Shown piece by piece: positions 5,353-41,884 of a stretch of DNA of 64,000 nucleotides. A model generated the notes under the pieces. It did no database searches. It saw only the letters and a program-made list of their open reading frames with translations, and was not told where the DNA came from. The stretch's first letter is position 1; every line of letters begins with the position of its first letter. The translations under genes were made by a program, and so were the position numbers. Source of the stretch: Paenibacillus guangzhouensis (lineage in GTDB: Bacteria; Bacillota; Bacilli; Paenibacillales; Paenibacillaceae). Where the stretch lies: assembly GCF_009363075.1 (NCBI RefSeq), contig NZ_CP045293.1, forward strand, positions 6,369,006 through 6,433,005, given 5' to 3'.

Positions 5353-5355
5353 CAT

Positions 5356-13094: not shown

Positions 13095-13114
13095 TGTTTG
13101 ACGGAGGAGCTATA

Positions 13115-16993: not shown

Positions 16994-18121
16994 TTGATGA
17001 TGCCACTTTACCTTGACTTTAATGCAACAAGCCCTGTTCATGATGAAGTGTTAGAAGTGATGGTTGAAGCTTACAAGAATAATTTCGGAAACCCCGCCAG
17101 TAGGACGCATCATCACGGGCATCAAGCAAAACAACTAGTGGATAATTCACGCAAAAATATCGCTGCGGTTCTTGGGGTGGTCCCCAATGATATTATTTTT
17201 ACTAGTGGCGCTACTGAGAGCAATAATCTGTCCATTCTTGGGCTTGAGGAATTCGGTGTAAAACAAAATAAAAAGCACATTATATCTACAGTTATAGAGC
17301 ACAGTTCAATTTTGGAACCACTAGAGCATCTATCCAAAAAGGGCTTTAAGATTGACCTTGTTCCAGTGGATTCATCAGGAAGGGTTTCAGCTGAGGATAT
17401 TATAAACCGTGTTACAGACGATACCTTACTAGTTACTATTATGCATGCTAATAATGAAACTGGGATTATCCAACCCGTGAAAGAAATTGGCGATGCCCTG
17501 GTTGACCGTGACGTATTTTTTCATATTGATGCAGCTCAGACCTTTGGAAAGCTTGTTGATGAATTGCAAGAAGTAAAATACGATCTTTTAAGTATAACAG
17601 CTCATAAGATATATGGACCCCAGGGAATTGGTGCGCTTGTTTTTCGGAATAAAAAATATAAGCGTCCACCAATTACTCCATTGATGTATGGTGGGAAACA
17701 AGAAAAAGGACTAAGGCCGGGTACCTTGCCTGCTCCGTTAATTGCAGGGTTTGGTAAAGCAGCAGAGTTGATATTATCTAATTATTTAAATTGGGCCAAG
17801 GCTGAATTGATTATTAGACAAAGTATTATAGAACAGCTTAAAGAAGTAGAATATACTATAAACGGTGACATTTCCTTATGCTTACCGAATTGCATTAATA
17901 TCAGCTTCCCTGGAGTAGACTCGGAGGCGTTAATGTTATGTGTTAGACAAAAATTATCGTTATCAAATGGATCAGCATGCACCTCATCTGAATATAAACC
18001 AAGCCATGTTTTATCCTCAATGGGAGCACTAGCTGAAAACAGTGTAAGGATATCTTGGGGACCTTACTTAGAAAATGTTGATTTATCAGAAATGATACTT
18101 TTTATAAAAAAAATTATTTAG
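16994..18121 (+). CDS. dndA: Cysteine desulfurase of the NifS/IscS family, serving as DndA
   Basis: 375 aa with class V aminotransferase motifs (FTSGATESNNL and SITAHKIYGPQGIGAL, the PLP-lysine region). Directly downstream of dndE. Confidence 0.85.
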   Translation: MMMPLYLDFNATSPVHDEVLEVMVEAYKNNFGNPASRTHHHGHQAKQLVDNSRKNIAAVLGVVPNDIIFTSGATESNNLSILGLEEFGVKQNKKHIISTVIEHSSILEPLEHLSKKGFKIDLVPVDSSGRVSAEDIINRVTDDTLLVTIMHANNETGIIQPVKEIGDALVDRDVFFHIDAAQTFGKLVDELQEVKYDLLSITAHKIYGPQGIGALVFRNKKYKRPPITPLMYGGKQEKGLRPGTLPAPLIAGFGKAAELILSNYLNWAKAELIIRQSIIEQLKEVEYTINGDISLCLPNCINISFPGVDSEALMLCVRQKLSLSNGSACTSSEYKPSHVLSSMGALAENSVRISWGPYLENVDLSEMILFIKKII

Positions 18122-18124
18122 ATT

Positions 18125-18160
18125 AAAAAGAAGCTGTGACTTACATAACAGCTTCTTTTA
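18125..18160. terminator. Bidirectional Rho-independent terminator shared by dndA (+) and the convergent Toprim gene (-)
   Basis: Perfect inverted repeat aaaagaagctgt ... acagcttctttt. Confidence 0.65.
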
Positions 18161-18974
18161 CTAATGTTGAGAATAACTTTTCAAAATAACAAATAAGTTC
18201 AATAATCTTCGGATCTTGTTGAATTTTTTGATCAGAAATATAATCAGTGTCACTTATTATTACCTTGTTAGTTTTTCCTGGCTTTTTTAATTGTCCAGCA
18301 ATCCCTATGCTCATCTTTTGAGTATCGGACGAATGTTTTTTAGGTATGTATGAACTGTTTTTTTGTAAAAACGTCTCTATATCTGTGAATAGTGGCTCAT
18401 GATCTTTAATCATAAGGGGAAGTACAACATCTTCAAGTTTCCCCATCCCATCTCCTTTTTCAAAAATGTAACAACCCAAGAATAACTCTTTATTATTTTT
18501 CTCCTCATTACAGATAATATCTAAATTAGATATTTCTTTAATTAATGGGAGGGTTTTGCTATACTCTTCTTTAAAAATATTTACTACAGATTCAATTCCT
18601 TTGTCGTCTGCATCATTAGTAAAAACAAAGGAGATATTTGTGATTTCAGTATCAGTTGCTGGTACTTCTAGAATATCAAGGTACTTGCCTATTAAGTCCC
18701 GTACTCTATCGTGCTTAGTATTTCCTCCAACACTGTATAATAACACAATTATTTTATCCTTATAGAGTATATCCATAGGCAGTAGCGGGTAGTAATTTTG
18801 TAAATTTAATTGGTTTAAATCATGTTTTTCTATTGCGTTCTTGAAAATTGCATTTAGTGGATAAGGTGCTTTGCCTATTTTTTCTCCATAATTTCGAAAA
18901 TTCATAGTTCGTAAAACCCTGTATATAAAAGCGACGTCGTGGGGACCTTCACATAGAATTAATACTACTTTCAT
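18141..18974 (-). CDS. Toprim-domain protein, OLD/RloB/AbiLii/DUF4276-like; predicted nuclease partner of the upstream ATPase
   Basis: 277 aa. N-terminal MKVVLILCEGPHDVAFI fits the Toprim hhhhEG..D glutamate motif. FVFTNDADDKG supplies a DxD motif. Start overlaps the ATPase stop by 4 nt. Confidence 0.6.
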   Translation of the reverse strand: MKVVLILCEGPHDVAFIYRVLRTMNFRNYGEKIGKAPYPLNAIFKNAIEKHDLNQLNLQNYYPLLPMDILYKDKIIVLLYSVGGNTKHDRVRDLIGKYLDILEVPATDTEITNISFVFTNDADDKGIESVVNIFKEEYSKTLPLIKEISNLDIICNEEKNNKELFLGCYIFEKGDGMGKLEDVVLPLMIKDHEPLFTDIETFLQKNSSYIPKKHSSDTQKMSIGIAGQLKKPGKTNKVIISDTDYISDQKIQQDPKIIELICYFEKLFSTLVKEAVM

Positions 18975-21007
18975 AAGCCACCTCTAAGATCCAAGTCAAG
19001 ATTCTCAATCAGCCTTGCCAAACTAGGGCCAGAATAGTAATTTGAAGTTATTTGGCTGTTCTCATAGTTAAATCTATAAGCAGATATGAATGAATTAGTC
19101 AAACAGTTGTTAACCAAAGCATTAATGCATTCTTTGCTATGAGAGGTAACAAAAATCTGCACATTAAATATTTCAGCAAGCTCACCGATGAATTTAGAGA
19201 ATTCGACCAATAGGGAGTGGTGTAATGCATTCTCTAATTCATCAATGAATATTACTCCATTCTCAACTGCGGCAAATTGAAGAGATATGTGGAATATCCT
19301 CTGGAAACCTTCTCCAAAATTTGTGATATCCACTGCTGATTTGAAATTTTTATGGTTTACAAGGAAACGCTTCATCTCCCCTGCTAATTCTATATTTTCT
19401 ATTCCGCTGTCTAATCGTGAATTAATAAACTTAACTATACGTTCGATATTTCGAGTTTCTACACTTTTTTCATGTAATCTGATTAGTTCTTCCTGATTTT
19501 GCATTGAAAAGGGAGTTGTGTAGGTTGAGAAACATAATTGATGTATTTTATCATAGAAGATTTCATTTTCTTTCTCGATAAAAAGTCTTGATTGCGTAGT
19601 GAATGTTCTATCCTCTACGGTTGCTATTAAATTCAAAGAAGTGATATACGAGTTTTTATTTAGATTATTAATACTTTCTTCTTCTTTAACTAATTTTGTT
19701 GATATAGATTTACCTTCGAAGTTACCAGATATATTAATTTCATCAGGAATAACGGAAGAAAGCCATGAAAAATCTAACTCATCATGAAATTTTCCTCTTC
19801 TTCTAAATACATCATAGTAACCGAAAATATCATTTAATCGCGTAAGAAAGTAAAGGGCTTCTAAAAAACTAGACTTACCCGTATTATTGATTCCAGCAAT
19901 AATATTGATCTTATTCAAATTTTCTACTCTAAAGTTCCTGAAGAGTTTATAGTTTTCAATGTTTACAGAACAGAAATGATTTGTTACTTTTTCAATAAGT
20001 GTATTCTTTAACACTACAGTATTTTTACTAAAATCGTTGCCTGTTTGAGGAGATATACTAATTGCTTCAAGTAACTCTTGCTTATCTTTATAGTTTAAAG
20101 CTTTATCAACTGATTTAGTATTTTCCATATACAGAAGAGTTCTTTCGTCATCCAAAATTGAGCGAAGATTTCTTATATCGGTGTAGTTTTTGATTATACG
20201 TTCACCGGGAGAGTTATCACCGTTAGTGTTATCGTCTAAATCTTCTTCATCAATTGATAACCAATTAAACAATCGATTAAGGTTCTTACTATTACTTGCT
20301 TTTAAGTTTTCCTCATCCCATTCAATCCATGCTCTAAGATTCGGGCTTTTGATAATTTCTTCAAAAATTGTGTACATATCTGGTTTAAATTGCTCCCCGA
20401 ATTCGCAGATTCGGAACTGATCTATTAAACCTAAAGTTCTTAGTGCACGTTTAATAGTTCCTGATTTAATCCCTAGAGTATCTGCAACGTCCTTCTCATT
20501 TAGTTTTTTCTCATGAATTAAATAATGGAGATATTTTGCCTGATTCCAAGCAGGCCAGCTTTTTGTACCGCTTATATGTTTTAGGCCCATAATAATTTGA
20601 TAATTTTCAAGACTTTTTTCTGAATAGACCACGACTGGGATTGTAGAAAAAATGCTAGGATCTAGCCCTCCAATATCTAAACCAAGTTTATAACGTTCGT
20701 ATAAAACTTTTAATGTAGAGACACGACGATTACCTTCGATTACTTCATATTTGTCTTCTGATAAATTAGTTACCTGGATTAAATCTACAGGCAAATACCC
20801 ATTTTTTGTAAAACTCAGAAGCAAATCATCTATGTTTTCATTTTTGTTCCCTGTAACAAGAATTCTTGTTCTAGTTTGTAAAACAGGGTCAGTTATATCT
20901 TCAATTTTTTGTCCAAATTCAATCTCATGAACTAAGCGGAAATTTTTGGGATCTAGATATAGATTATCAATGTGGACTTCTTTGTGCTCATAAGCTTTAT
21001 CCATCAT
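18971..21007 (-). CDS. Fusion protein: N-terminal ParB/Srx-like domain, an HTH, and a C-terminal ABC-type ATPase (AAA_15/AAA_21, as in AbiLi, AriA and the OLD N-terminal half)
   Basis: 678 aa. ParB-like motifs LYLDPKNFRL and YEVIEGNRRVSTL. HTH-like IKSGTIKRALRTLGL. Walker A IIAGINNTGKSSFLEAL, Walker B VIFIDELENALH, H-loop IFVTSHS. Confidence 0.7.
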   Translation of the reverse strand: MMDKAYEHKEVHIDNLYLDPKNFRLVHEIEFGQKIEDITDPVLQTRTRILVTGNKNENIDDLLLSFTKNGYLPVDLIQVTNLSEDKYEVIEGNRRVSTLKVLYERYKLGLDIGGLDPSIFSTIPVVVYSEKSLENYQIIMGLKHISGTKSWPAWNQAKYLHYLIHEKKLNEKDVADTLGIKSGTIKRALRTLGLIDQFRICEFGEQFKPDMYTIFEEIIKSPNLRAWIEWDEENLKASNSKNLNRLFNWLSIDEEDLDDNTNGDNSPGERIIKNYTDIRNLRSILDDERTLLYMENTKSVDKALNYKDKQELLEAISISPQTGNDFSKNTVVLKNTLIEKVTNHFCSVNIENYKLFRNFRVENLNKINIIAGINNTGKSSFLEALYFLTRLNDIFGYYDVFRRRGKFHDELDFSWLSSVIPDEINISGNFEGKSISTKLVKEEESINNLNKNSYITSLNLIATVEDRTFTTQSRLFIEKENEIFYDKIHQLCFSTYTTPFSMQNQEELIRLHEKSVETRNIERIVKFINSRLDSGIENIELAGEMKRFLVNHKNFKSAVDITNFGEGFQRIFHISLQFAAVENGVIFIDELENALHHSLLVEFSKFIGELAEIFNVQIFVTSHSKECINALVNNCLTNSFISAYRFNYENSQITSNYYSGPSLARLIENLDLDLRGGL

Positions 21008-21652: not shown

Positions 21653-22822
21653 ATGGCGATCGTCCAAGTGAGATCCACGAATCCGCAGTTCTCGTATTTA
21701 ATTAAGAAAAATCCGAATTCCGGCATGATGCTTCGCTCGATCCGCAGAGGTATGACGTACGGATGGTACACCGATGACCAGACCTATAACGTTTATTTTA
21801 AAGACGCAGACAATGAAATTTCCTATAAACAGCATGAGCAGGAGAATTTCGAATATCTAAATGTATCGAGGTACAACACGCCGTTATTTCCTCTTAATGC
21901 TATTAATGAATTCTTCTCCGCGCCGCTTAAGGCACAAGACGAACGAGATGTAGAGGGTTATGAGCATACCTTCTTTATTAATATGATACATATCGAACTG
22001 ATCCGGTATATTGAGTTTTTCGAGAAACATTTGAAAGATTTCTCTTTCGAAATCACCCACCAGGCCCATAAGAGCTATTCGCTCACCGTTACGACGAAGG
22101 AGAGCCTGTATCAGCTGCTGCATGCGGTCAGTGTATTATGCTTATTCCTGTCCATGTTCGGCAACGAGTACATCGATATCTCGGACAGCATTCTAGATAA
22201 GTACATCAAGAGCATGAATGTGATTGATGCACCATTCTATATTCGTAGCCTGTTCGTACGGAACTTCTTGTCTTCAAGAGATCGGTTTCATAAATACAAG
22301 GCAGAGCTTGAGAAAACGGAGCGATATGACATTCAGTTCGCCTACGGAGGTACGGCACTGCAGCGAAGAAATTATATCGGAAGCGCACTGGCTTTTGACA
22401 AATCGATCTTGGATGTAGGGTGTGGAGAGGGATTCTATGCGCTCCCTTTTGCGGGGAAAATAGAAGGCAGCTACTATGCGGTGGATATCCATGAGGAGTC
22501 TCTGGAGAAGGTAAGGCGTAAAGCTGAGGCCAGGGAGATCGATAACATCGTCATATTCGGCTCGATCGATCAGTTCCTGGAAAGCTATAACGGAGAGCAA
22601 GTCGACGTGATTCTTACGGAGGTTATTGAACATATGAGCCAGAATGAGGCCAAACTGCTGATCCATCAAATCTCCGCGCATGTCGATTTTGACAGATTTA
22701 TTATCACGACGCCTAACGCCGATTTTAATATCTACTATGAGCTGAACGATTTCCGTCATGACGACCATAAGTGGGAAATGGGCGAGGAATCATTCCAGCA
22801 GTGGATGCGCGATGTGATTTAG
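21653..22822 (+). CDS. hen1: Hen1-like RNA 3'-terminal 2'-O-methyltransferase (class I SAM-dependent MTase with an N-terminal Hen1-type domain)
   Basis: 389 aa. SAM motif I ILDVGCGEGFYAL. Hen1-type metal motif VILTEVIEHM. Immediately upstream of pnkp. Confidence 0.65.
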   Translation: MAIVQVRSTNPQFSYLIKKNPNSGMMLRSIRRGMTYGWYTDDQTYNVYFKDADNEISYKQHEQENFEYLNVSRYNTPLFPLNAINEFFSAPLKAQDERDVEGYEHTFFINMIHIELIRYIEFFEKHLKDFSFEITHQAHKSYSLTVTTKESLYQLLHAVSVLCLFLSMFGNEYIDISDSILDKYIKSMNVIDAPFYIRSLFVRNFLSSRDRFHKYKAELEKTERYDIQFAYGGTALQRRNYIGSALAFDKSILDVGCGEGFYALPFAGKIEGSYYAVDIHEESLEKVRRKAEAREIDNIVIFGSIDQFLESYNGEQVDVILTEVIEHMSQNEAKLLIHQISAHVDFDRFIITTPNADFNIYYELNDFRHDDHKWEMGEESFQQWMRDVI

Positions 22823-22921: not shown

Positions 22922-25507
22922 ATGGATATTCAAACGAAAATTCATACGATTTTCATGCTGATCGGGTCTACCGAATGCGGCAAAACGACGTTCGCCAAGG
23001 AAGTACTAATTCCCGGGTTGCGTTTTGAGGATGCCAGCCGGAATGTTAGGGGCAACGTTCAATATTTATCCTCAGACCAGATCCGCCAGGAGGTTCTTGG
23101 CTATGAATACGATAAGTATGACCAAGTGATGCTCGAGGCTAGCGAACAAGCTTTTCACCTGTTGTTTGAACGGTTGAAGATGGCAACGTCTTTTCCGATC
23201 AATGCAGAGTTTGTGGTCGTTGATACAACTGGGTTGTCGGAGGATTTCCGCGCAAAGGTGAAGGAAGTTGCGTTTCAGAACAATTACAACCTTGAGGTCA
23301 TTGTCTTCGATTATCGCAAACGGGAAGATTATTATGCCTCGGAGCGTTCGAAGAAATTGATTACGAATCACATTAACCGTCTGAAAAAAGAAGTTCTCGG
23401 TTCGTTATCTCGCGAAGGATACGGCAAGATTCATAAAGTGCGCGCCAAGGATTTTTATCTGCCCGAAGAAGGAAGAGCGAACCCAGAATACAACATTGTC
23501 ATCGAGGATTTGGATTCTTATTTATCGACTGTTCTGCCACAGGATCAGCAATATATCATCATTGGGGATGTCCACGAATGTGTGGATGATCTGAAAGGGC
23601 TGCTCCTCGACCACGGGTACAAGATGGATGCAGGCAAGCTGGTTGTAACAGATAAGCTGAAGCATACCAAGCTCATTCTCGTTGGGGACTGGATTGATAA
23701 AGGCAAACAGACGCAGGACATCGTTCAGTTTTTATATGATAACCAGGAGCACTTCTACTTCGTGCTAGGGAATCACGAGAACTTCGTCGACAAGTATATC
23801 AAAGGTGAAATAAAAGGCGTCGATCAAGAGTTGCTCCATACGTATTTTGATTCAACGCAAGTGTTATTGAACGATTCGGTGCTACTGGATAAATTCCAGC
23901 ACCTCGTGTCGATTTCCAAACCGTTCTATCGGTATGTAGGCGTCAACGGTTCGTCCTTCTATGTCACACATGCCCCGTGCCGGAATAAATACATCGGGAA
24001 GCTGGATACGAATTCTATTCGACATCAGCGGAACTTCCGAATCGATCGGGAGGCGCCATTGGAGGGTCAACTTGCATTTCTGCAGGAGGAAGCGGTCAGA
24101 AATCATCCGTATCACGTGTTCGGTCACGTTGCAGCCAAGCAGTCTTTCCAAATCGGCAACAAGCTTCACATCGACACGGGAAGCGTGCATGGTAACCTAT
24201 TAACTTCCGTCAGTATCTCGTATAAGCCGTTTATGAAGTCCCACAAATCCCACCAAGCGGTGATTACTGAGGAATTGCAGACTTTATTCAAGCAAGAGCG
24301 AAAGGTATCCATGCAAGACCTTGCAGAGGACGATATCCGCAGACTCCATTATTGCTCGCGACACAAAATCAATTTCATCTCAGGTACCATGTCCCCAGCG
24401 GATAAGGACGACGAGACGAATGAGTTGGAATCCTTAAAGTGTGGACTCGAATATTTCAAAGAACGCGATGTCCAGCAGGTTGTTCTGCAGCCGAAATATA
24501 TGGGTTCGAGATGCAATATTTATTTGCATAGAGATCCGGAGCAATGCTTCGCTGTCAGTCGCAACGGTTACAAAATCAATCATGTGGATTTATCGGAGAT
24601 CTACGGTGAGCTGCTGCAAAAGTTCGGTAGCTATATGGAAGAGCAGAAGATTGCCATGATGATTCTAGATGGAGAGCTTCTTCCGTGGATGGCGCTTGGC
24701 GAAGGACTGATCGAAAGACAGTTTAAGCCTATTGAAAAATCGCTGGAGACTGAGCTAACATTCCTACAGCAAAACGGTTTTGAGGAAGCCTTTCTTAAGC
24801 TTATGACTGAGTACGAGGCGAGTGGTTTTGAACAAGATCAACATCATACAGCCAAGTCTGTGTTAAGTGATAAGTACGGCTCAAGCGTATACCAAAACTA
24901 TAAGTACGCCCATGATATTCGGGGAACGTATGTCCCATTATCCGAGCACATGAAGGCTTATCAAACGTATAGAAGACAGTTGGAGCTATATGCGCAAGAC
25001 GAGGCTATGAAGTATAAACCGTTTGCCGTGTTGAAAATCGTATATGATGACGGGCAGGAAGAAGTTCCAGAATGGAAGACCAGCGAGATGTATGCTTTTC
25101 TCTCGGAAGATGAAGCGATCACATTGGATCTATCCGAGCCGGACGGCTTGGAGCGAGCTGAACGTTACTTCTCGAAGCTTACGACGGAGAACCATATGGA
25201 AGGGATCGTAATCAAACCGGAGATAAGGAACGGAAAAACGGTACCGTATATGAAAGTGCGTAATCCCGATTATTTGTCCATCATTTACGGATATGACTAC
25301 AAGTTCCCGCATAAATACCGTAAGCTGCTTAAACAAAAGAATGTCAATCCAAAGCTTCGTACTTCACTCAAGGAGTACCAATTGGGGATGCAAATGCTAG
25401 CGGTACCATTTGATGCAATTACGCCTGAGCATGAGGCTTATAAAGAGATCGCTGCTAATCTACTGTTCGAGGTTGCACAGGAGCGGGAGATCGATCCGCG
25501 TCTATAA
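22922..25507 (+). CDS. pnkp: Bacterial polynucleotide kinase-phosphatase (Pnkp): P-loop kinase, calcineurin-like phosphoesterase and adenylyltransferase/ligase domains
   Basis: 861 aa. Kinase P-loop GSTECGKTTF. Phosphoesterase motifs GDVHEC, GDWIDKG and GNHEN. Ligase motif I-like KYMGSR. Confidence 0.85.
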   Translation: MDIQTKIHTIFMLIGSTECGKTTFAKEVLIPGLRFEDASRNVRGNVQYLSSDQIRQEVLGYEYDKYDQVMLEASEQAFHLLFERLKMATSFPINAEFVVVDTTGLSEDFRAKVKEVAFQNNYNLEVIVFDYRKREDYYASERSKKLITNHINRLKKEVLGSLSREGYGKIHKVRAKDFYLPEEGRANPEYNIVIEDLDSYLSTVLPQDQQYIIIGDVHECVDDLKGLLLDHGYKMDAGKLVVTDKLKHTKLILVGDWIDKGKQTQDIVQFLYDNQEHFYFVLGNHENFVDKYIKGEIKGVDQELLHTYFDSTQVLLNDSVLLDKFQHLVSISKPFYRYVGVNGSSFYVTHAPCRNKYIGKLDTNSIRHQRNFRIDREAPLEGQLAFLQEEAVRNHPYHVFGHVAAKQSFQIGNKLHIDTGSVHGNLLTSVSISYKPFMKSHKSHQAVITEELQTLFKQERKVSMQDLAEDDIRRLHYCSRHKINFISGTMSPADKDDETNELESLKCGLEYFKERDVQQVVLQPKYMGSRCNIYLHRDPEQCFAVSRNGYKINHVDLSEIYGELLQKFGSYMEEQKIAMMILDGELLPWMALGEGLIERQFKPIEKSLETELTFLQQNGFEEAFLKLMTEYEASGFEQDQHHTAKSVLSDKYGSSVYQNYKYAHDIRGTYVPLSEHMKAYQTYRRQLELYAQDEAMKYKPFAVLKIVYDDGQEEVPEWKTSEMYAFLSEDEAITLDLSEPDGLERAERYFSKLTTENHMEGIVIKPEIRNGKTVPYMKVRNPDYLSIIYGYDYKFPHKYRKLLKQKNVNPKLRTSLKEYQLGMQMLAVPFDAITPEHEAYKEIAANLLFEVAQEREIDPRL

Positions 25508-25608
25508 CAGGGATGAGGTGTCTGACTTAGAGTCGGGCACCTTTCCTTTGTACAAAAGATGTGTAAATCTATAATTCTCCTATCTCTTATTTTTCGAAAC
25601 AAGTATAA
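25192..25608 (+). repeat. Direct repeat copy 1 (about 416 bp): the last 315 bp of pnkp plus 100 bp of downstream sequence
   Basis: Near-identical to 26765..27180, including the hairpin gtgtctgactTAgagtcgggcac and the tail ttttcgaaacaagtataat. Confidence 0.85.
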
Positions 25609-25634
25609 TGCTCAATACTTCAGACTTTAGTGAA

Positions 25635-25815
25635 GTGCAACACGCGGCCAATTTAGGCGGAGACTCGGACACGATTGCCTAGGGCCTGGCGGGGGTGTAT
25701 TGGGTATATAGCAAGATTCCATCGGTGTTGCTGATGGATTATTGATCAAAGATCGACTAGAAGAAGTCATTTCGTATCTGTATCGTTACGGACAGGAGAG
25801 AAAGCCCCCTTCATA
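25635..25815 (+). pseudogene. Remnant of the C-terminus of an ADP-ribosylglycohydrolase gene (premature stop plus frameshift)
   Basis: Translates as VQHAANLGGDSDTIA*GLAGVYW...IPS then, frame-shifted, LIKDRLEEVISYLYRY. This is homologous to the 3' end of the ARH gene at 35190-35362 (AANLGNDSDTIGAIAGGLAGIHWGYREIPS...LINERLNDIALRLYRS). Confidence 0.55.
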
Positions 25816-26019
25816 AGCATAGAAAAGAAGCTTCGGCAATCATACTCAACGATTGTCGAAGCTTCTTTGTTATGTTCCTATTCCTCAACCAAATACACAA
25901 TCTCCCGAATATCCTCGCTATTCAGTGCCTCCGCAACTCGCTCAATATGGCTGAAATTAATATTCACCCGCTTGCCATTAGCCAACTCGCTTAATGCGGC
26001 ATGTCTTACATCGGACAGC

Positions 26020-26223
26020 CTAGGAAGGTTCTCGTCTGTCCTTCCATTCATTTACTTCTCTAGGATCAATATCTAGAAGCTCGCAGATATGCAAAGCTAT
26101 GGTCACTGTGGGCGTTGTTATACCATGTTCGATGTTTTGGTAATGTTTCAATGAAACGTTAATAGCTCGACTTAGCTTTTCTTGACTAATACCTTTATGT
26201 TTTCTGGCTTCACTTAGATTCAA
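26020..26223 (-). CDS. XRE-family HTH regulator, apparently disrupted at its 3' end (C-terminal homology continues out of frame to about 25880)
   Basis: 67-aa ORF with HTH GISQEKLSRAINVSLKHYQNIE. DNA at 25880-26040 is homologous to the 3' end of the XRE gene at 41574-41700 but is not in the same frame. Confidence 0.5.
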   Translation of the reverse strand: MNLSEARKHKGISQEKLSRAINVSLKHYQNIEHGITTPTVTIALHICELLDIDPREVNEWKDRREPS

Positions 26224-26429
26224 AAGTAAACAACTCCTAGCTGGTTTTTACCATCGTAACAAAAGTGTGAAATTTAAATAACAAATTATTATTGGCAAAT
26301 TTTAATACGAGAATTATAATTACTAATTAAGTGAACTGTTAACTTGGAAAGAGGTGAGGATATGGTATCGATGTATGAATAAAATAGTTTTGTGGTCCTA
26401 AAGGAAATTTATTCAACTATTTACATGAG

Positions 26430-26738
26430 ATGTCATTGAATAGCAGACAAAATGAGGTGGCAGATATGAATGATACATTTAAAAAATACGAAGAAGCCAT
26501 CCAAGAAGAACACACACTAATGCAAAGAATCTGCCTGTGCAAAGAACTCATCAACGTTATACTAGAGTATATCTCCAACAAGGCAGATAATATTCATTTG
26601 CCTACTGCGGAGGACATTGTGACTGCCATCCATACGATGGGGCAGGATCTCGATACAGAGCTGCTTCATCTGCAGTTAGAAATGGGAGTCCTCGAGAGGG
26701 AGATTAAAAGCTTAAGGTTACAGAAAGAATACCTCTAG
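26430..26738 (+). CDS. Small conserved 102-aa protein of unknown function, divergently paired with the XRE gene; copy 1 of a three-member family in this window
   Basis: Close paralog of 41885..42193 (the YEEAIQEEHTLMQRI...IHLPTAEDIVT.IHTM...DTELLHLQLEM block is conserved). Confidence 0.6.
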   Translation: MSLNSRQNEVADMNDTFKKYEEAIQEEHTLMQRICLCKELINVILEYISNKADNIHLPTAEDIVTAIHTMGQDLDTELLHLQLEMGVLEREIKSLRLQKEYL

Positions 26739-26764
26739 ATGCCTCGATGCGTACGCTGGAGACT

Positions 26765-27180
26765 ATATGGAAGGGATCGTGATCAAACCGGAGATATGGA
26801 ATGGAAAAACGGTACCGTATATGAAAGTGCGGAATCCCGATTATTTGTCCATCATCTATGGATACGACTACAAGTTCCCGCATAAATACCGCAAGCTGCT
26901 CAAACAAAAGAATGTTAATTCAAAGCTTCGTACTTCATTCAAGGAGTACCAGTTGGGGATGCAAATGCTAGCAGTACCATTTGATGCAATTACGCCTGAG
27001 CATGAGGCTTATAAAGTGATCGCTGCTAATCTACTGTTCGAGGTAGCGCAGGAGCGGGAGATCGATCCGCGTCTATAACAGGGATGAGGTGTCTGACTTA
27101 GAGTCGGGCACTTTTCCTTTGTACAAAAGATGCGTAAATCTATAATTCTCCTATCTCTTATTTTTCGAAACAAGTATAAT
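26765..27180 (+). repeat. Direct repeat copy 2, containing a duplicated pnkp 3' fragment (ORF 26767..27078, 103 aa, a non-functional gene fragment)
   Basis: The 103-aa product is near-identical to the last 103 aa of Pnkp with a few substitutions (R>W, P>S, L>F, E>V). The downstream 100 bp are also duplicated. Confidence 0.85.
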
Positions 27181-27228
27181 ACAATTAATGGAATTGTTAT
27201 GATAGCATTGGGAAGCGAAGGAGTAGTT

Positions 27229-27784
27229 ATGTTAAATCAAGTTATGGAACAAAGCTTAAGCAAATTAATGACGAAGATTCTGCGGCACACACCGGAGGAT
27301 TTTGGAGTTCTCTTGGATCCTGAGGACAGTTCATGTCCGCTAGATTCGTTATTGGAAGCCCATTCAAGCACAGCCTAAGTGGTCGTTGGTTAAAATGGAA
27401 GATATAGAGCAGGTGGTCCGTAATTCAGAAAAGCAGCGTTTTGAAATCGAAGGCAGCCGCATCCGAGCAAGGTACGGTCATAGTCATGCCAAAGTCCAAT
27501 ATGCCCCGGGTGAGCCTCCGGCCATTCTATATCATGGAACGAATAAGAAGGCTCTTTCGTCGATCTTGAAGGAAGGGCTGCGACCGATGAGCCGGCAGTA
27601 TGTGCATTTGTCGGAAGGCACCCATTTTGCAACGCTGGCAGGGAGCCGCAGGGGAGAGCTTGTCATTCTCAAGGTAGACACCGCTCATGCCAAGCAGTTA
27701 GGAATTACATTCTACTACGCAGGGAACGAAGTATGGCTAGCTGACCGGGTGCCGCCTACAAGCTGCTCGGTCATGGAGCCCTAG
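27229..27784 (+). pseudogene. kptA: RNA 2'-phosphotransferase KptA/Tpt1 interrupted by a frameshift near 27370-27380
   Basis: N-terminal part LSKLMTKILRHTPEDFGVLLDPEDSSCPLDSLL lies in one frame and ends in a stop. The continuation KWSLVKMEDIEQVVRNSEKQRFEIEGSRIRARYGHS...HGT...RRGELVILKVD...VWLADRVP lies in the +1 frame. Together they align to Tpt1/KptA end to end. Confidence 0.7.
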
Positions 27785-27804: not shown

Positions 27805-28590
27805 ATGAATCATCCAATCATTGATATCGGTGTCAATTTGATGCATCGTTCGTTTCACCAAGATCGAGAGCAAGTGGTTGAAAGAGCGGCAGCGAATAAC
27901 GTTTCACCTCTTATCCTTACAGGAACGAGTCTAAGGAACAGCGTCGATGCGGCTCGATATGCAGGCCGTTACAAAGGAAAATTGTATTCTACAGCAGGAG
28001 TTCATCCGCATGATGCGAAGAGCTGCGACGATCGGACGATCGCGAAGCTCAGAGAATTGGCGGCGATGCCACAGGTTGTCGCAATTGGCGAGTGTGGTCT
28101 AGACTATAACCGGGACTTCTCGCCGCGGGATGTACAACGGAAATGGTTCGCTGAGCAAATTCAATTGGCGCTTGAGCTGAATATGCCGTTGTTTCTACAT
28201 GAGCGGGACGCATTCACGGATTTTACGGCGATGCTGAAGGAACATGCTGTACAGAAGGCAGTGGTACATTGCTTTACCGGGAATCTGAATGAACTGAAGA
28301 CATACCTGAATATGGGACTCTACATAGGCATTACAGGATGGATTTGCGATGAGCGGAGAGGGAAGCATCTGAGGGACCTGGTCCGCATCATCCCACTCGA
28401 CCGATTGATGATCGAGACGGATGCGCCGTTCTTAACCCCGCGCGATCTGAAGGAGAAGCCGGCAGACGGACGCAATGAGCCTGCATTCTTGCCGCATATT
28501 TTGGAAGCTGTAGCACGATGTACGGGTAAGACGGTAGAAGAGGTGGCGAAGGCTACGACGGAGACGGCCGTAGAGTTTTTCCGAATTTGA
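27805..28590 (+). CDS. tatD: TatD-family metal-dependent hydrolase/DNase
   Basis: 261 aa with TatD motifs GVHPHDA, AIGECGLDY, LFLHERDA, HCFTG and ETDAPFL. RBS AAAGGAG present. Confidence 0.85.
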   Translation: MNHPIIDIGVNLMHRSFHQDREQVVERAAANNVSPLILTGTSLRNSVDAARYAGRYKGKLYSTAGVHPHDAKSCDDRTIAKLRELAAMPQVVAIGECGLDYNRDFSPRDVQRKWFAEQIQLALELNMPLFLHERDAFTDFTAMLKEHAVQKAVVHCFTGNLNELKTYLNMGLYIGITGWICDERRGKHLRDLVRIIPLDRLMIETDAPFLTPRDLKEKPADGRNEPAFLPHILEAVARCTGKTVEEVAKATTETAVEFFRI

Positions 28591-28684: not shown

Positions 28685-29545
28685 TTACGAAGATCGTTCC
28701 TCATTGACTGTAGCGGTAGCGACGCCATATCGCTCCAACGCTTTCGTTGACGCCTTTAGCATCCTTCTTTTTAAATAATCTCCCTCGATCACCCGAACAC
28801 GTTTCCCGAGAAAACGAATCTTGGAAAGCAAATACTTCATTTCATCTCCTAGCAGAGAGACTCTGATTCGATAGGTATCATGATCCAGATCATACTCGAC
28901 ACTTTTTTCGAAGCTGGAGAAGGCGTAGAGGATGCGGGACAACTCTTCGTTATACATTGGAATAATCTCGATGACCACTTCACTTTTGCGCGAATCCAAT
29001 GTGTTACCGATTTCCTGAAGGATGCTCTCTGCAACTGATTGTCGGATCGATTCTTCTGTAACCTCATGAATATGCTTCAGCCGGGTGCTCATAAAGGCGT
29101 TATATCTGGTGTGGTACCATAGCAAATACCATTCTCTCTTGACCATGGAATATTCCAGCTTATACGGAAAACCTGAATGGTCTGTTTTCAATCGTCCGCT
29201 CTTAATCTCGTAAGTGATGCGAATTCCCGTCTTATTCATAATGTGCCGACGTAGTGTGGGCAGGAGCGGGTGATACACCTGTTTCTCCAGACTGCGGGCT
29301 TTTTCAATCAAATGAGAGGAGGTATCCATCACTTGATCCGACGCAAGGATGGAACGTAACTTGTTCAACGTGTCTGCAGTGAAAGCCTCGGCAGCCGCAG
29401 GATGTTCAAGCATCGTCTTCAGCCATGCCCGTTCATGCGAGGTGACCATGAAGGTACCGGAATCCTCCAAACGTGAGATGATCTGGTGGTTAAATATTTT
29501 CTCGAACAGGTTCATAGTAGGCTTGAATCTCCTTCCACTCGGCAA
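28685..29545 (-). CDS. WYL-domain protein without an obvious N-terminal HTH (WYL plus a C-terminal extension)
   Basis: 286 aa. WYL signature KREWYLLWYHTRYNAFMSTRLKHIH. Start uncertain (TTG at 29545 or ATG at 29515). Confidence 0.7.
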   Translation of the reverse strand: MPSGRRFKPTMNLFEKIFNHQIISRLEDSGTFMVTSHERAWLKTMLEHPAAAEAFTADTLNKLRSILASDQVMDTSSHLIEKARSLEKQVYHPLLPTLRRHIMNKTGIRITYEIKSGRLKTDHSGFPYKLEYSMVKREWYLLWYHTRYNAFMSTRLKHIHEVTEESIRQSVAESILQEIGNTLDSRKSEVVIEIIPMYNEELSRILYAFSSFEKSVEYDLDHDTYRIRVSLLGDEMKYLLSKIRFLGKRVRVIEGDYLKRRMLKASTKALERYGVATATVNEERSS

Positions 29546-30812
29546 TCATTTCCCGCCGGAGCTGCATAGGCTCTAGAATCTCGCAGCTGGAACCGAAACT
29601 GCGCAGCCATGGCTTGATTTCGGTCGTCCCGTTCACGGTAATTTCGTAGATAAACGCATGTTCATCTTCGGAGACGATCTGTCCCCACTGTCCCTGCAGC
29701 ATGACTCGGTCCTTGACGAAGTTTGGTTCGGACCCACCCGGATTATAGAATTTAGCGCGTACCGTCACCGGTCGTCCCGTATCGATGAGCCAACTATACT
29801 GCATTTTGGCGGCAAGTTCGGTCTTCTTTTCTTCACACCATGCCTCGTCCACAGATTCATCCTCTTCGATTTGCGTGATCCCTTCGATACGGTATTTGCG
29901 GATTCCCTCTCTGCCATAGGCAAGCAAATACCATCTACCATACTGATGATCGTACACAATCTTAAGCGGGAGCGTCTTCTCGGTTTTGCCTTCCGTATCC
30001 CGTTCAAATAAGGGGTTGGTATTCTTGGAGGCATAGCTTTTCTCGGACTTCGGCGAGAAGTAGAGAAAACGGACCTTCCTACGGTGACGGATCGCATGCA
30101 GCAGCGTGAACAGATGCGCCTCATCCAATATGCGTGAGTGATAGTGATATTTATATAAAAATGGCTCGACGGCATGCTGCTCGACTTGATTGCGCAAGAG
30201 AAGCTTCTTCAGTCCGTCACGCAGCAGATAACCTTGAACAGAAGGCACCTGCGTATTCGCCATGACGTCGACAAAATCATACAAATCGATAAGCTCTTCA
30301 TCCGATAAGCTGCGAACCAAGTCATCCTGAATGCGATAACGGTAGGGGCGAGGTCCAGGCTCTTTCTTGATGACTCCGACCTCCTCCAAGTATTTGAGAT
30401 CGGACCGAATTGTCTTCTCATCAGGGAGTGGAAGATCCGAAGATAGGCTGTTGCAGCATACATCCAAGAGCTCCATTGCCGTCAGAGCCTGCTCATTCAT
30501 CGCACCTAGCAGCAGCGAGATTCGTTGACTTTCGGATTCCTTGACGGATTTGGCGCGGAACAGGAACAAGAGCAGTGGATCGGTGGTGTCATAGTAGCTG
30601 TACCGAATCGTCTCGGATAATTCCTTACTCTGTTCTTGAGGCAAAACCTGATGCAGCGAGCTGACGACTTCTTTGAGCCGTCGTATTGTTTTATCGAATG
30701 TGTGGACGGAAATGCCAAGCCGTTCTGCGAATTGCTGTCTACTGAAGGCACCGCTGGTCAACACAAGCATACGTAGGAATTGGATTTCTTTATCAAAACT
30801 TTCCTTAGCCAA
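29490..30812 (-). CDS. HTH-WYL transcriptional regulator (YafY/PafB-like)
   Basis: 440 aa. N-terminal HTH FAERLGISVHTFDKTIRRLKE. WYL signature YGRWYLLAYGREGIRKYRIEGI. Overlaps the downstream WYL gene by 56 nt. Confidence 0.7.
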   Translation of the reverse strand: MAKESFDKEIQFLRMLVLTSGAFSRQQFAERLGISVHTFDKTIRRLKEVVSSLHQVLPQEQSKELSETIRYSYYDTTDPLLLFLFRAKSVKESESQRISLLLGAMNEQALTAMELLDVCCNSLSSDLPLPDEKTIRSDLKYLEEVGVIKKEPGPRPYRYRIQDDLVRSLSDEELIDLYDFVDVMANTQVPSVQGYLLRDGLKKLLLRNQVEQHAVEPFLYKYHYHSRILDEAHLFTLLHAIRHRRKVRFLYFSPKSEKSYASKNTNPLFERDTEGKTEKTLPLKIVYDHQYGRWYLLAYGREGIRKYRIEGITQIEEDESVDEAWCEEKKTELAAKMQYSWLIDTGRPVTVRAKFYNPGGSEPNFVKDRVMLQGQWGQIVSEDEHAFIYEITVNGTTEIKPWLRSFGSSCEILEPMQLRREMIAEWKEIQAYYEPVRENI

Positions 30813-41479: not shown

Positions 41480-41573
41480 AAGTAAGAAGTAATTTGTCTT
41501 GAATATAAGGTTTTACAGAAAAGAAGCTTCAGTAATCATCTCGATGATTATGAAGCTTCTTCTATTTTGAGTT

Positions 41574-41855
41574 CTATTCCTCAACCAAATCAATAATCTC
41601 CCGAATATCCTCAATCTTCAGGGCCTCGGCAATTCGCTCAATATGGCTGAAATTTATATTCTCCCGCTTGCCATTTGACAATTCACTTAACGCCGCATGT
41701 CTCACATCAGACAATCTAGATAACTCGCGTAAGGAAATGTTATGTTGTTTGGTTAGTTCATTTATTTTAACAACGACTTTTCTAGCCATATAAAGAATCA
41801 CCTTCGAACAATGAATGTTGACTATACGCATTAACGTACCATATAATATGTTCAT
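41574..41855 (-). CDS. XRE-family HTH regulator (intact copy)
   Basis: 93 aa with HTH LRELSRLSDVRHAALSELSNG. Divergent from the small-protein paralog. Confidence 0.7.
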   Translation of the reverse strand: MNILYGTLMRIVNIHCSKVILYMARKVVVKINELTKQHNISLRELSRLSDVRHAALSELSNGKRENINFSHIERIAEALKIEDIREIIDLVEE

Positions 41856-41884
41856 AACTGGTACGTATATACGTACCGATAGAG

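What the first reader, a model, noticed from the sequence alone, without database searches (positions are those of the whole stretch)
25192..27180. 416-bp direct duplication of the pnkp 3' end brackets a 1.15-kb inserted cassette
The last 315 bp of pnkp and 100 bp of its downstream region occur twice, at 25192-25608 and 26765-27180, differing only by a few point changes. Between the copies lie an ADP-ribosylglycohydrolase 3' remnant, a disrupted XRE gene and a 102-aa small-protein gene. This structure is a signature of an insertion or recombination event that duplicated the target. The second copy supplies the sequence immediately upstream of kptA. The point differences (R>W, P>S, L>F, E>V in the duplicated peptide) imply the event is not very recent
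Basis: seen in the sequence. Interest (0 to 1): 0.6.

Follow-up and report, generated by a model that had tools for sequence, protein, structure and literature searches.

The report
Recombination scar: displaced pnkp 3′ end
In a Paenibacillus RNA-repair operon the tail of the pnkp gene occurs twice around a 1.15-kb patchwork insert; this is a real but fairly ordinary scar of an old recombination event that pushed one gene end downstream, not a mobile element or a new system.

Summary
The repeat is real. Copy A is 25171-25611 and copy B is 26743-27182. They lie 1571 bp apart, and the 416-bp core has 20 substitutions and no indels. A metagenome contig from a strain 2-3% diverged (L034) carries both novel junctions, so this is not a mis-assembly, and the event predates that strain split.

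The window is Paenibacillus guangzhouensis. Relatives have hen1-pnkp-kptA-tatD-(ARH) with WYL regulators. Copy B plus kptA is that native arrangement. Copy A completes the intact pnkp.

The insert is a mosaic:
- a decayed ARH 3' remnant;
- a 5'-truncated HTH_26 gene;
- an intact HTH_3 gene and a 90-aa gene with divergent promoters.

It has no recombinase, no terminal inverted repeats and no tRNA.

A/B differences are 13 synonymous to 4 non-synonymous (dN/dS 0.07), which does not fit neutral decay of a fresh duplicate. In P. periandrae (L023) an independent event has the same topology around McrBC-like cargo, and there the two copies are clearly not sisters.

Best reading (0.58): 3'-end displacement by incoming homologous DNA, joined by homology at one end and illegitimately at the other, as at rhs and T6SS loci. 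An in-situ duplication with gene conversion remains possible. Interest is modest.

The parts
21653..22822 (+). hen1 (RNA 3'-end 2'-O-methyltransferase). Conserved partner gene upstream of pnkp and possible homology anchor.
   Evidence: Pfam Hen1_N 2e-109 plus methyltransferase domains. Present upstream of pnkp in 32 of the 33 relatives (all but L028, where pnkp is 5'-truncated).
22922..25507 (+). Intact pnkp (861 aa: kinase, phosphatase, ligase). Its last 337 bp belong to repeat copy A.
   Evidence: Pfam AAA_33, Metallophos and PNKP_ligase. 100% identical to the P. guangzhouensis protein P0001.
25171..25611 (+). Repeat copy A: pnkp codons ~751-861, the stop codon, the intrinsic terminator (25515-25543) and the conserved -10 box TATAATGC.
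   Evidence: Alignments and self-BLAST; terminator scan; comparison with relatives.
25612..25816 (+). ADP-ribosylglycohydrolase 3' remnant (GGDSDT motif) with an in-frame stop and a frameshift. Junction J1 with copy A lies at 25611/25612.
   Evidence: Translations. tblastn places the intact ARH gene downstream of kptA/tatD in L005, L006, L009 and L013. L034 carries a different 10-nt deletion here, so the segment is decaying neutrally.
25818..25874 (.). 24-nt-arm hairpin, probably a bidirectional terminator. This is where homology to the paralogous module at 41517 begins.
   Evidence: Inverted-repeat searches; paralogue alignment; 0 differences from L034.
25878..26051 (-). 5'-truncated HTH_26 (XRE-like) gene. 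It is 83% identical to the intact 71-aa paralogue at 41574-41789, and the homology stops at about 26023.
   Evidence: A 2-nt deletion in L034 shows it is a pseudogene.
26020..26223 (-). Intact-looking 67-aa HTH_3 regulator gene (TTG start, AGGAG ribosome-binding site).
   Evidence: Pfam HTH_3 1e-12. Called as a gene in L034; 4 nt and 1 aa differences from it. Minus-strand promoter 26342-26313 matches 11 of 12 consensus positions.
26292..26342 (.). Divergent near-consensus promoters in the AT-rich spacer: plus strand TTGGCA-17-TATAAT, minus strand TTAACA-18-TATAAT.
   Evidence: Promoter scan.
26466..26738 (+). 90-aa protein of unknown function, from a family seen only in Paenibacillus. A paralogue lies at 41885-42193 and a fragment at 54600-54708.
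   Evidence: No Pfam, PHROG or PADLOC match. 19 homologues were found; the five that carry a source name are all Paenibacillus. 98% identical in L034. Paralogues found.
26739..26766 (+). Junction J2 and the eroded left edge of copy B. pnkp homology resumes at about 26743, with 3 substitutions and a 1-nt deletion within 28 nt.
   Evidence: The cluster is significant (4 changes against 0.47 expected, P=0.0014). This stretch is 100% identical in L034.
26743..27182 (+). Repeat copy B: the displaced pnkp 3' end. It contains an open 103-aa ORF (26767-27078), the terminator (27086-27114) and the -10 box TATAATAC, in native continuity with kptA.
   Evidence: Pfam PNKP_ligase profile positions 281-352 of 377 only. 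It matches the last ~100 residues of solved Pnkp ligase and Rnl chains.
27229..27784 (+). kptA/tpt1 (RNA 2'-phosphotransferase), split by one extra base in a C run at about 27358-27361.
   Evidence: Pfam PTS_2-RNA. tblastn with the intact L004 and L028 KptA shows a switch from frame +1 to +2. The gene is intact in L037.
27805..28590 (+). tatD-family nuclease gene, downstream member of the conserved operon.
   Evidence: Pfam TatD_DNase 1.5e-74; synteny in relatives.
28685..30812 (-). Two WYL-domain regulator genes (286 aa and 440 aa) that close the conserved island.
   Evidence: Pfam WYL, WCX and HTH_11. Found close to the operon in 17 of the 33 relatives.

Best explanation
This is a 3'-end displacement scar.

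The ancestral locus was hen1-pnkp-[terminator-promoter]-kptA-tatD. DNA from a related pnkp island, taken up from another strain or present as an ectopic copy, recombined with it. One end was anchored by homology inside hen1/pnkp. The other, non-homologous end was joined illegitimately inside pnkp at about codon 751. This could have happened by homology-facilitated illegitimate recombination, or by one-ended homologous repair of a break completed by end joining.

The incoming piece brought three things:
- its own pnkp 3' end, terminator and -10 box (copy A);
- debris from the far end of its own island (the ARH 3' remnant);
- a small HTH/small-protein module.

The resident pnkp 3' end (copy B) was pushed 1.57 kb downstream. 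It stayed attached to kptA and kept kptA's native upstream region.

What is shown: the anatomy, both junctions, the native context of copy B, the age of the event, and the absence of mobile-element machinery.

What is inferred: that the two copies have separate allelic origins, and the recombination pathway.

Functionally the structure is mostly inert:
- pnkp stays intact;
- kptA-tatD keep their own promoter region;
- copy B is a relic that covers only the last quarter of the ligase domain, so it cannot be a ligase;
- only the HTH_3 gene and the 90-aa gene look like live cargo.

The direct repeats have since allowed some gene conversion, and they could mediate loss of the cassette.
For: 1. Native order. 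In relatives pnkp is followed directly by the terminator, the TATAAT box, AATTAATGG and kptA-tatD. Copy B has exactly this arrangement. Copy A breaks off after TATAATGC into an ARH fragment, and in relatives ARH lies downstream of kptA or tatD.

2. Selection signature. There are 13 synonymous and 4 non-synonymous differences, dS 0.226, dN 0.017. P=2e-6 if neutral and P=3e-4 if one copy were neutral throughout. About 6 derived changes fall on each copy. Of 7 changes private to copy B, only 2 are non-synonymous (P=0.0065). At three sites copy B keeps the outgroup state while A, L034 and L037 share a derived state.

3. Independent parallel. In L023 the intact pnkp is followed by 4.7 kb of cargo (a DUF2357/PD-(D/E)XK McrC-like gene and an AAA_5-like gene), then an orphan pnkp 3' end, then kptA. 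The orphan's non-coding tail differs from the intact gene's tail at 24 of 57 positions, but from L028's at only 8 of 55. The two copies are therefore not sisters.

4. No mobile-element features. There is no transposase or integrase gene, no terminal inverted repeats, no tRNA, and no phage or plasmid similarity.

5. Junction footprint. A significant cluster of changes lies at copy B's left edge, and it was already present in the ancestor shared with L034. L023's orphan is also eroded at its left edge.

6. Published precedent. The same topology and mechanism have been proposed for orphan 3' ends at rhs and T6SS effector loci (PMC5361080).

7. Setting. The locus abuts a Dnd / PDC-M38 defence island with 31-40% GC, a region of high gene turnover.
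Against: - No close relative with an empty site or a donor arrangement was found. The nearest full-length Pnkp is only 88% identical, so neither the donor nor the crossover point in pnkp can be shown.
- Site patterns among A, B, L034 and L037 are reticulate. B and L037 share two derived states. In the non-coding tail A equals B, against L034 equal to L037, at about five sites. That means gene conversion or population recombination has blurred the history, and it could also lower the apparent dN/dS.
- The ARH remnant comes from the same kind of island, which an in-situ rearrangement would also explain.
- The donor must already have lost kptA, tatD and the 5' part of ARH, or the event involved several template switches. 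Either way more than one step is needed.
- The counts are small (17 coding differences).
Confidence: 0.58

Rival explanations
1. In-situ rearrangement. An unequal or illegitimate crossover between sister chromosomes tandemly duplicated the segment from the pnkp 3' end through kptA-tatD-ARH-HTH-small. Later deletions removed kptA-tatD-5'ARH from the first unit and ARH-HTH-small from the second. Gene conversion from copy A has kept copy B gene-like.
For: - The ARH remnant is the island's own downstream gene in relatives.
- A and B agree against L034 and L037 in the non-coding tail.
- L034's repeat is A-type at 7 of 8 informative sites yet has the B-type left junction. This suggests homogenisation of the copies in that strain, so conversion does occur.
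Against: - It needs at least three events.
- The differences that remain after conversion should be recent and neutral in B, so rich in non-synonymous changes. They are mostly synonymous.
- B keeps ancestral states that A, L034 and L037 have lost.
- In the parallel L023 case an in-situ origin is rejected outright.
- No trace of ARH-HTH-small is found downstream of tatD in the window.
Confidence: 0.22
2. The 1.56-kb unit (repeat plus cassette) is an excisable, circularising or amplifiable module. It enters pnkp loci by Campbell-type single crossover through its own copy of the pnkp 3' end, with no dedicated recombinase.
For: - L034 is exactly one unit, with identical 29-nt ends (unit length 1562 bp). 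Its single repeat has copy B's left junction and copy A's right junction, as expected for a circle or for the middle repeat of a tandem array.
- Integration of such a circle would give repeat-cassette-repeat in one homologous step.
Against: - L034's ends coincide, to within a few bases, with the left homology boundary. That is what an assembly-graph branch point (a collapsed repeat) produces. A circle would be opened at an arbitrary point.
- The unit encodes no replication or transfer function.
- It was seen in one lineage only.
- The circle would itself need two illegitimate joints to arise.
- L023's cargo and breakpoints are different.
Confidence: 0.08
3. Copy B is not just a relic. Its open 103-aa ORF (ATG 26767, with GGAG 5 nt upstream, co-oriented behind the small-protein gene) is expressed as a free C-terminal Pnkp ligase sub-domain. 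It modulates the Pnkp-Hen1 complex, which would explain purifying selection on it.
For: - The ORF is intact.
- Changes private to copy B are biased towards synonymous (P=0.0065).
- The 28 nt just upstream of the ATG are much more mutated than the ORF.
Against: - Two of the B-private changes (L816F, E842V) replace residues that are L in 68 of 119 and E in 86 of 119 full-length Pnkp homologues (L in 18 of 19 and E in all 19 nearest relatives).
- The L023 orphan is shorter, internally deleted and frameshifted, so no such ORF is conserved.
- Short PNKP_ligase ORFs in other genomes are pieces of broken genes or deletion relics.
- An open 312-nt frame after about 2-3% neutral divergence is not unusual.
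Confidence: 0.05
4. A mobile element (IS or transposon with a target-site duplication, or an integrase-driven island whose att sites overlap the pnkp 3' end) inserted here and later decayed.
For: The insert is bracketed by direct repeats. Prophages that integrate into gene 3' ends carry a replacement gene end (own knowledge: e14 and phage 21 in icd).
Against: - The duplication is over 416 bp, far longer than any transposase target-site duplication.
- There are no terminal inverted repeats.
- No transposase or integrase gene, or remnant of one, appears in any frame.
- There is no tRNA and no phage or plasmid similarity.
- The cassette is only 1.15 kb, made of island debris plus a paralogue of a chromosomal module.
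- L023's 4.7-kb cargo also lacks a recombinase.
Confidence: 0.03
5. Assembly artefact: a falsely duplicated or mis-joined repeat.
For: None beyond the general risk. The kptA frameshift lies in a homopolymer run, which hints that the assembly may contain indel errors.
Against: - The copies differ at 20 positions.
- The genome contig is 6.9 Mb.
- Both novel junctions recur in L034, and repeat-to-kptA recurs in L037, in independent samples.
Confidence: 0.01

Closest known systems
C-terminal (3'-end) displacement at rhs, CDI and T6SS effector loci, producing orphan 3' ends. Proposed to occur by homology-facilitated illegitimate recombination (Kirchberger et al. 2017, PMC5361080, which cites Jackson et al. 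2009).
   Same: An intact gene is followed, in the same orientation, by new DNA and then an orphaned 3' fragment of the same gene. The conserved 5' part acts as the homology anchor. No recombinase is involved. In L023 the copies are not sisters, which is the same argument those authors used against duplication.
   Different: At rhs and T6SS loci the displaced 3' ends encode different toxin domains, and retained immunity genes give a selective rationale. Here the two ends encode nearly the same peptide, nothing obviously useful is retained, and the gene is an RNA-repair enzyme. Only one orphan is present, not an array.
Homology-facilitated illegitimate recombination during natural transformation (de Vries & Wackernagel 2002; Prudhomme et al. 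2002; Meier & Wackernagel 2003; all as cited in PMC5361080).
   Same: There is one homologous anchor and one illegitimate joint, and foreign DNA is inserted next to a conserved gene without a dedicated recombinase.
   Different: The experimental events usually delete recipient DNA rather than duplicate it. Microhomology at the illegitimate joint cannot be checked here because the donor is unknown. The transformability of P. guangzhouensis is unknown.
Prophage or island integration into the 3' end of a protein gene, where the element supplies a substitute gene end (e14 and phage 21 in E. coli icd; own knowledge, not checked here).
   Same: The gene's 3' end is duplicated. The copy that completes the gene differs from the displaced one mostly by synonymous changes.
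   Different: Those cases need an integrase and have a short identical core at attL and attR. Neither is present here.
Bacterial Pnkp-Hen1 RNA repair system (PMC3675462; related Pnkp1-Rnl-Hen1 complex, PMC4411300).
   Same: The host locus encodes Hen1 (Hen1_N plus methyltransferase) and a three-domain Pnkp. The duplicated piece aligns to the last ~100 residues of solved Pnkp ligase and Rnl chains.
   Different: The finding concerns a rearrangement of the locus, not the system itself. The gene order here is hen1 then pnkp, with kptA, tatD, (ARH) and two WYL regulators attached.

Membership tests
3'-end displacement scar (rhs / T6SS-type orphan 3' end) | An intact gene followed in the same orientation by a partial 3' copy of itself, with unrelated DNA between them. 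| tested here: met
   Intact pnkp at 22922-25507, cassette at 25612-26742, orphan at 26743-27182. L023 has the same layout.
3'-end displacement scar (rhs / T6SS-type orphan 3' end) | The resident and orphan 3' ends have different allelic origins, that is, they are not sister copies made in situ. | tested here: inconclusive
   Window: dN/dS of 0.07, balanced derived changes, and ancestral states kept by copy B all favour separate origins. But the site patterns are reticulate, and the tail suggests gene conversion. L023: the feature is clearly met (24/57 against 8/55 tail differences).
3'-end displacement scar (rhs / T6SS-type orphan 3' end) | The orphan keeps the ancestral downstream context. 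| tested here: met
   Copy B continues into the terminator, TATAAT, AATTAATGG and kptA, as in L004, L005, L014, L028 and L030.
3'-end displacement scar (rhs / T6SS-type orphan 3' end) | Microhomology at the illegitimate joint, and an identifiable donor. | not testable with these tools
   No donor-like or empty-site relative exists in the collections. The nearest Pnkp is 88% identical, and the one metagenome scan gave only L037.
Transposable element with target-site duplication | A short target-site duplication (a few bp), terminal inverted repeats, and a transposase gene. | tested here: not met
   The repeat is over 416 bp. There are no terminal inverted repeats at 25612 / 26742 and no transposase domain.
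Integrase-mediated genomic island or prophage (attL/attR) | A tyrosine or serine recombinase gene next to one repeat, an identical att core, and often a tRNA or gene 3'-end target. | tested here: not met
   No recombinase, no tRNA, no phage or plasmid similarity. The repeats differ throughout, with no identical core standing out.
Diversity-generating retroelement (template and variable repeats at a gene's 3' end) | Mismatches confined to adenines of the template repeat, and a reverse transcriptase gene nearby. | tested here: not met
   The differences are mostly transitions of all types, largely at third codon positions. No reverse transcriptase gene lies among the ORFs from 21 to 31 kb.
Pnkp-Hen1 RNA repair operon (host locus) | Hen1 with an N-terminal Hen1_N domain plus a methyltransferase, and Pnkp with kinase, metallophosphoesterase and ligase modules, encoded side by side. 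| tested here: met
   Pfam hits. The pnkp 3' region matches PDB chains 3TY5, 4DRF and 4XRP. Enzyme activity was not tested.

The most novel reading that the evidence does not exclude
The repeat-flanked 1.56-kb unit is a recombinase-free 'homology-hitchhiking' cassette. It loops out as a circle by recombination between the two pnkp 3' copies and can re-enter any related pnkp locus by a single crossover. The pnkp 3' end would then act as a portable attachment site for shuffling small cargo (here the HTH_3 and 90-aa genes; McrBC-like genes in P. periandrae) at the edge of defence islands. The circularly permuted metagenome contig L034 would be a direct observation of the circle or of an amplified array.
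Probability: 0.07. Interest if true: 0.6.

Novelty: new member of a known kind. Interest (0 to 1): 0.3.

Why it matters
The finding gives a clean, well-bounded example, with an independent parallel in another species. It shows that gene-end displacement by one-sided homologous recombination is not limited to polymorphic-toxin loci such as rhs, CDI and T6SS. It also reshapes ordinary operons next to defence islands, in this case the Pnkp-Hen1 RNA-repair operon.

For annotation, it warns against three mistakes:
- calling the 103-aa ORF a gene;
- reading repeat divergence as the age of the event;
- treating circular-looking metagenome contigs such as L034 as plasmids or viruses.

It does not reveal a new molecular system.

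Tried and rejected
- **Exact look-ups.** Looking up the window's Pnkp and the 102-aa ORF found nothing on record.
- **Closer relatives.** The nearest full-length Pnkp is 88% identical. The single metagenome scan with a lineage-specific 19-mer returned only L037, which starts inside the repeat, so its upstream context is unknown.
- **Diversity-generating retroelement.** Rejected: the mismatches are not adenine-specific and there is no reverse transcriptase.
- **Transposon, integrase or phage origin.** Rejected.
- **Known RNA family in the region.** None found.
- **Stand-alone pnkp C-terminal ORFs as common duplication scars.** The five cases on long contigs are split pnkp genes (Paenibacillus sp. 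P26, P. macerans, L044) or deletion relics (P. stellifer, Paenibacillus sp. N3.4). Among the 34 loci only the window and L023 carry a second fragment.
- **W769R in the intact pnkp as evidence of loss of function.** Softened. Trp is universal in the 19 nearest relatives but occurs in only 62 of 119 homologues.
- **A clean tree for the four repeat copies.** Not obtainable, because the site patterns conflict.
- **Function of the 90-aa protein.** No Pfam, PHROG or PADLOC match.

Full report
**1. Observation**

The window contains two direct copies of the pnkp 3' end.
- The gap-free core is 25196-25611 and 26767-27182, offset by 1571 bp. It has 17 substitutions in the 312-bp coding part and 3 in the 104-bp non-coding tail.
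- Homology continues about 25 nt further left, to 25171 / 26743. In that stretch copy B has three more substitutions and a 1-nt deletion.
- The right edge is sharp. Both copies end with a TATAAT box plus two bases. Copy A then reads TCAATACTTC... and copy B reads AATTAATGG....
- Each copy contains the pnkp stop codon and an intrinsic terminator (25515-25543, 27086-27114).

**2. Source and native gene order**

The Pnkp protein is 100% identical to that of Paenibacillus guangzhouensis, on a 6.9-Mb contig. The next best homologue is only 88% identical.

I fetched 33 related loci. They show a conserved island: hen1-pnkp-kptA-tatD-(ADP-ribosylglycohydrolase), often with two WYL regulator genes on the opposite strand nearby.

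In L004, L005, L014, L028 and L030 the pnkp stop is followed by a hairpin terminator, a conserved TATAAT box, then (G/A)ATTAATG and kptA. Copy B has exactly this continuity, so copy B plus kptA-tatD is the ancestral arrangement. Copy A is continuous with the intact pnkp and breaks off right after TATAATGC.

**3. The cassette (25612-26742) is a mosaic**

- **ARH remnant, 25612-25816.** It keeps the GGDSDT motif but has an in-frame stop and a frameshift. In relatives the intact ARH gene lies downstream of kptA or tatD, not next to pnkp.
- **Hairpin (25818-25874) and a 5'-truncated HTH_26 gene.** This piece is 83% identical to an intact module elsewhere in the window: a 71-aa HTH_26 gene at 41574-41789 and a divergent small-protein gene at 41885-42193. 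P. selenitireducens (L036) has the same layout of a large protein of unknown function followed by HTH_26 and the small protein. I infer from this that the 41.5-kb copy is the native one.
- **A different, intact-looking 67-aa HTH_3 gene (26223-26020).** It replaces the 5' end of the HTH_26 gene at about 26023. The AT-rich spacer beyond it has two divergent promoters, each matching 11 of 12 consensus positions.
- **The small-protein gene.** It most likely starts at ATG 26466 and encodes 90 aa. Its 19-member family matches no Pfam, PHROG or PADLOC model; the five members that carry a source name are all Paenibacillus. A third fragment lies at 54600-54708.

There is no transposase, integrase or reverse transcriptase, no terminal inverted repeats, no tRNA, no Rfam hit and no phage or plasmid similarity.

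**4. Independent confirmation and age**

L034 is a 1591-bp contig from JGI metagenome 3300002855 and is 95.9% identical to window 25171-26767.
- It consists of exactly one unit: repeat, ARH remnant, HTH genes, small protein.
- Its first and last 29 nt are identical, giving a unit length of 1562 bp.
- Its single repeat has copy B's left junction, with the odd 28-nt stretch 100% identical. It also has copy A's right junction into ARH.

Both novel joints therefore exist in an independent sample, which rules out mis-assembly of the junctions.

Between the window and L034, the HTH_3 gene (4 nt, 1 aa) and the small-protein gene (5 nt, 2 aa) are intact. The ARH and HTH_26 remnants carry different indels in the two strains, as expected for pseudogenes. 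Overall cassette divergence is 2-3%. The event is thus older than the split of these two strains.

L034's ends coincide with the repeat's left homology boundary, and its repeat is A-type at 7 of 8 informative sites. The most economical reading is a chromosomal repeat whose two copies were homogenised in that strain and collapsed by the assembler. A circle or a tandem array cannot be excluded.

L037 is a second metagenome contig, 91.7% identical. It covers part of the repeat, then kptA and tatD, with kptA intact. It starts inside the repeat, so its upstream context is unknown.

**5. Were the copies made in place, or are they two alleles?**

Evidence for two alleles:
- The coding differences are 13 synonymous and 4 non-synonymous (dS 0.226, dN 0.017, ratio 0.07). 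The probability of so few non-synonymous changes is 2e-6 if both copies were neutral, and 3e-4 if one copy had been neutral throughout.
- Polarised against 19 relatives, about six derived changes fall on each copy. W769R is derived in the intact gene. L816F and E842V are derived in copy B.
- Of about seven changes private to copy B, only two are non-synonymous (P=0.0065).
- Copy B keeps the outgroup state at three sites where A, L034 and L037 share a derived state. It is the most divergent of the four copies (17, 26 and 24 differences, against 17-19 among the others).

Together these point to B having spent most of its separate history inside a working pnkp gene, so that A and B are alleles brought together by recombination.

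Evidence that blurs this:
- The site patterns are reticulate. B and L037 share two derived states.
- In the non-coding tail, A and B agree with each other against L034 and L037.

Gene conversion or population recombination has therefore acted, and the inference is not clean.

**6. An independent parallel in P. periandrae (L023)**

In L023 the intact pnkp is followed by a diverged terminator and then 4.7 kb of cargo. The cargo comprises an unknown 233-aa protein, an AAA_5-like protein and a DUF2357 + PD-(D/E)XK protein, which together resemble McrBC. After the cargo come an orphan pnkp 3' end, the native spacer and kptA.
- The breakpoints differ from those in the window, and the orphan is eroded by internal deletions at its left edge.
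- The orphan's non-coding tail differs from the intact gene's tail at 24 of 57 positions, but from the P. piri allele (L028) at only 8 of 55.
- In the coding part the two copies (8 differences) are no closer to each other than each is to L030 (7 and 5).

In L023 an in-situ duplication is rejected. The intact gene's end arrived together with the cargo.

Among the 34 loci only these two carry a second pnkp fragment. Short PNKP_ligase ORFs elsewhere are split genes or deletion relics.

**7. Mechanism**

The topology is: intact gene, new DNA, then an orphan 3' end still joined to its old downstream neighbour, with no recombinase. This is the 'C-terminal displacement' pattern described for rhs and T6SS effector loci. 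[quoted passage not shown]

One-ended homologous repair of a break in pnkp, completed by end joining, would give the same product. It would also account for the significant cluster of changes at copy B's left edge (4 changes against 0.47 expected, P=0.0014). That cluster was already present in the ancestor shared with L034.

The pathway is inferred, not shown. The donor must already have lost kptA, tatD and the 5' part of ARH, or the event involved template switches.

**8. Consequences**

- pnkp stays intact.
- kptA-tatD keep their native upstream region.
- Copy A's duplicate of the -10 box now faces a dead ARH fragment.
- Copy B covers only profile positions 281-352 of 377 of the PNKP_ligase domain and aligns to the last ~100 residues of solved ligase chains. 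From general knowledge of nucleotidyltransferases, this region lies downstream of the adenylylated lysine, so copy B cannot act as a ligase.
- The repeats can support gene conversion and loss of the cassette.

**9. Context**

The 21 kb to the left is AT-rich (31-40% GC against 46-50% elsewhere). It encodes an AbiC-like protein, DndFGH plus DndB/C/D/A, and the candidate system PDC-M38. The locus therefore sits at the edge of a defence island.

The RNA-repair island itself is decaying in many relatives: frameshifted hen1 or pnkp in L030 and L028, kptA lost in L001, and relics in L040 and L043. In the window kptA is split by one extra base in a C run, while it is intact in L037. This could be a real frameshift or a homopolymer sequencing error.

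**10. Verdict**

The structure is a new example of a known kind of recombination scar, with modest interest (0.3).

The most novel reading that is not excluded is a recombinase-free cassette that circularises and re-enters pnkp loci through its own copy of the pnkp 3' end. I put that at about 7%.

Noticed in passing
window 27229-27784 (frameshift at ~27358-27361): kptA/tpt1 is split into two frames by one extra base in a C run (GAAGCCCATT here, GAAG-TCATT in L037). It is intact in L037 and in L004 and L028. This is either a strain-specific pseudogene or a homopolymer sequencing error. kptA is also frameshifted in L023, the other locus with a displaced pnkp end.
   Followed up: partly
window 25226 (pnkp codon 769): The intact pnkp has Arg where all 19 nearest relatives, copy B and L034 have Trp. 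Across 119 homologues Trp is present in only 52%, so the functional meaning is unclear.
   Followed up: yes
window 1-21007: An AT-rich (31-40% GC) defence island lies directly upstream of hen1. It encodes an AbiC-like protein (5-973), DndF/G/H (3538-11881), DndB/C/D (12003-16598), DndA/SspA-like cysteine desulfurase (16994-18121), and the candidate system PDC-M38 B and A (18141-21007, minus strand). No dndE was looked for.
   Followed up: partly
window 41517-42193 and 54600-54708: These are paralogues of the cassette's HTH_26 and small-protein module. One is an intact copy next to a 459-aa protein of unknown function, with the same three-gene layout in P. selenitireducens (L036). The other is a 109-bp fragment in an intergenic region. 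The small-protein family (about 90-100 aa, 19 members) has no known domain; its five named members are all Paenibacillus. It is usually paired with a divergent XRE-type gene.
   Followed up: partly
L034 1-1591: This metagenome contig has identical 29-nt ends and equals one repeat-plus-cassette unit (1562 bp). It looks circular, but its ends sit at the repeat boundary, which suggests a collapsed chromosomal repeat. Such contigs could be mistaken for small plasmids or viruses.
   Followed up: partly
L023 12826-17089: The cargo inserted between pnkp and the orphan pnkp end in P. periandrae comprises a 233-aa unknown protein, a 683-aa AAA_5-like protein and a 525-aa DUF2357 + PD-(D/E)XK protein. 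It is a probable McrBC-like restriction module. A similar MrcB_N/AAA_5 plus DUF2357/PDDEXK_7 pair lies next to the hen1/pnkp relic in P. stellifer (L040).
   Followed up: partly
L042 7132-8909; L006 and L009 ~12600-14900: P. macerans and P. oralis have about 2.3 kb between pnkp and kptA. In L042 this is MscL, a nitroreductase and an Rrf2 regulator, all on the opposite strand. There is no duplicated pnkp end. The pnkp-kptA spacer is therefore a recurrent insertion point, and insertions do not always leave a scar.
   Followed up: partly
window 25560-25611 / 27131-27182, and the pnkp-kptA spacers of L004, L005, L014, L028 and L030: The conserved kptA upstream region has a perfect TATAAT box but no recognisable -35 element. 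Two WYL-domain regulators lie close to the operon in about half of the relatives. The promoter may be activator-dependent. This was not tested.
   Followed up: no
L012 12770-12957: Short repeats of 25-30 nt spaced 50 bp apart (TCTAACGGCGGCC.../GCC.AATAG.GGC...CCGCCGTTAGAA) fill the pnkp-kptA spacer of a Bacillota MAG. They look like a REP- or MITE-like palindromic element.
   Followed up: no
L030, L028, L001, L024, L040, L043: The hen1-pnkp-kptA-tatD island is often decayed in relatives. Examples are frameshifted hen1 and pnkp (L030), 5'-truncated pnkp (L028), kptA lost and tatD truncated (L001), an internal tatD deletion (L024), and bare pnkp C-terminal relics (L040, L043).
   Followed up: partly
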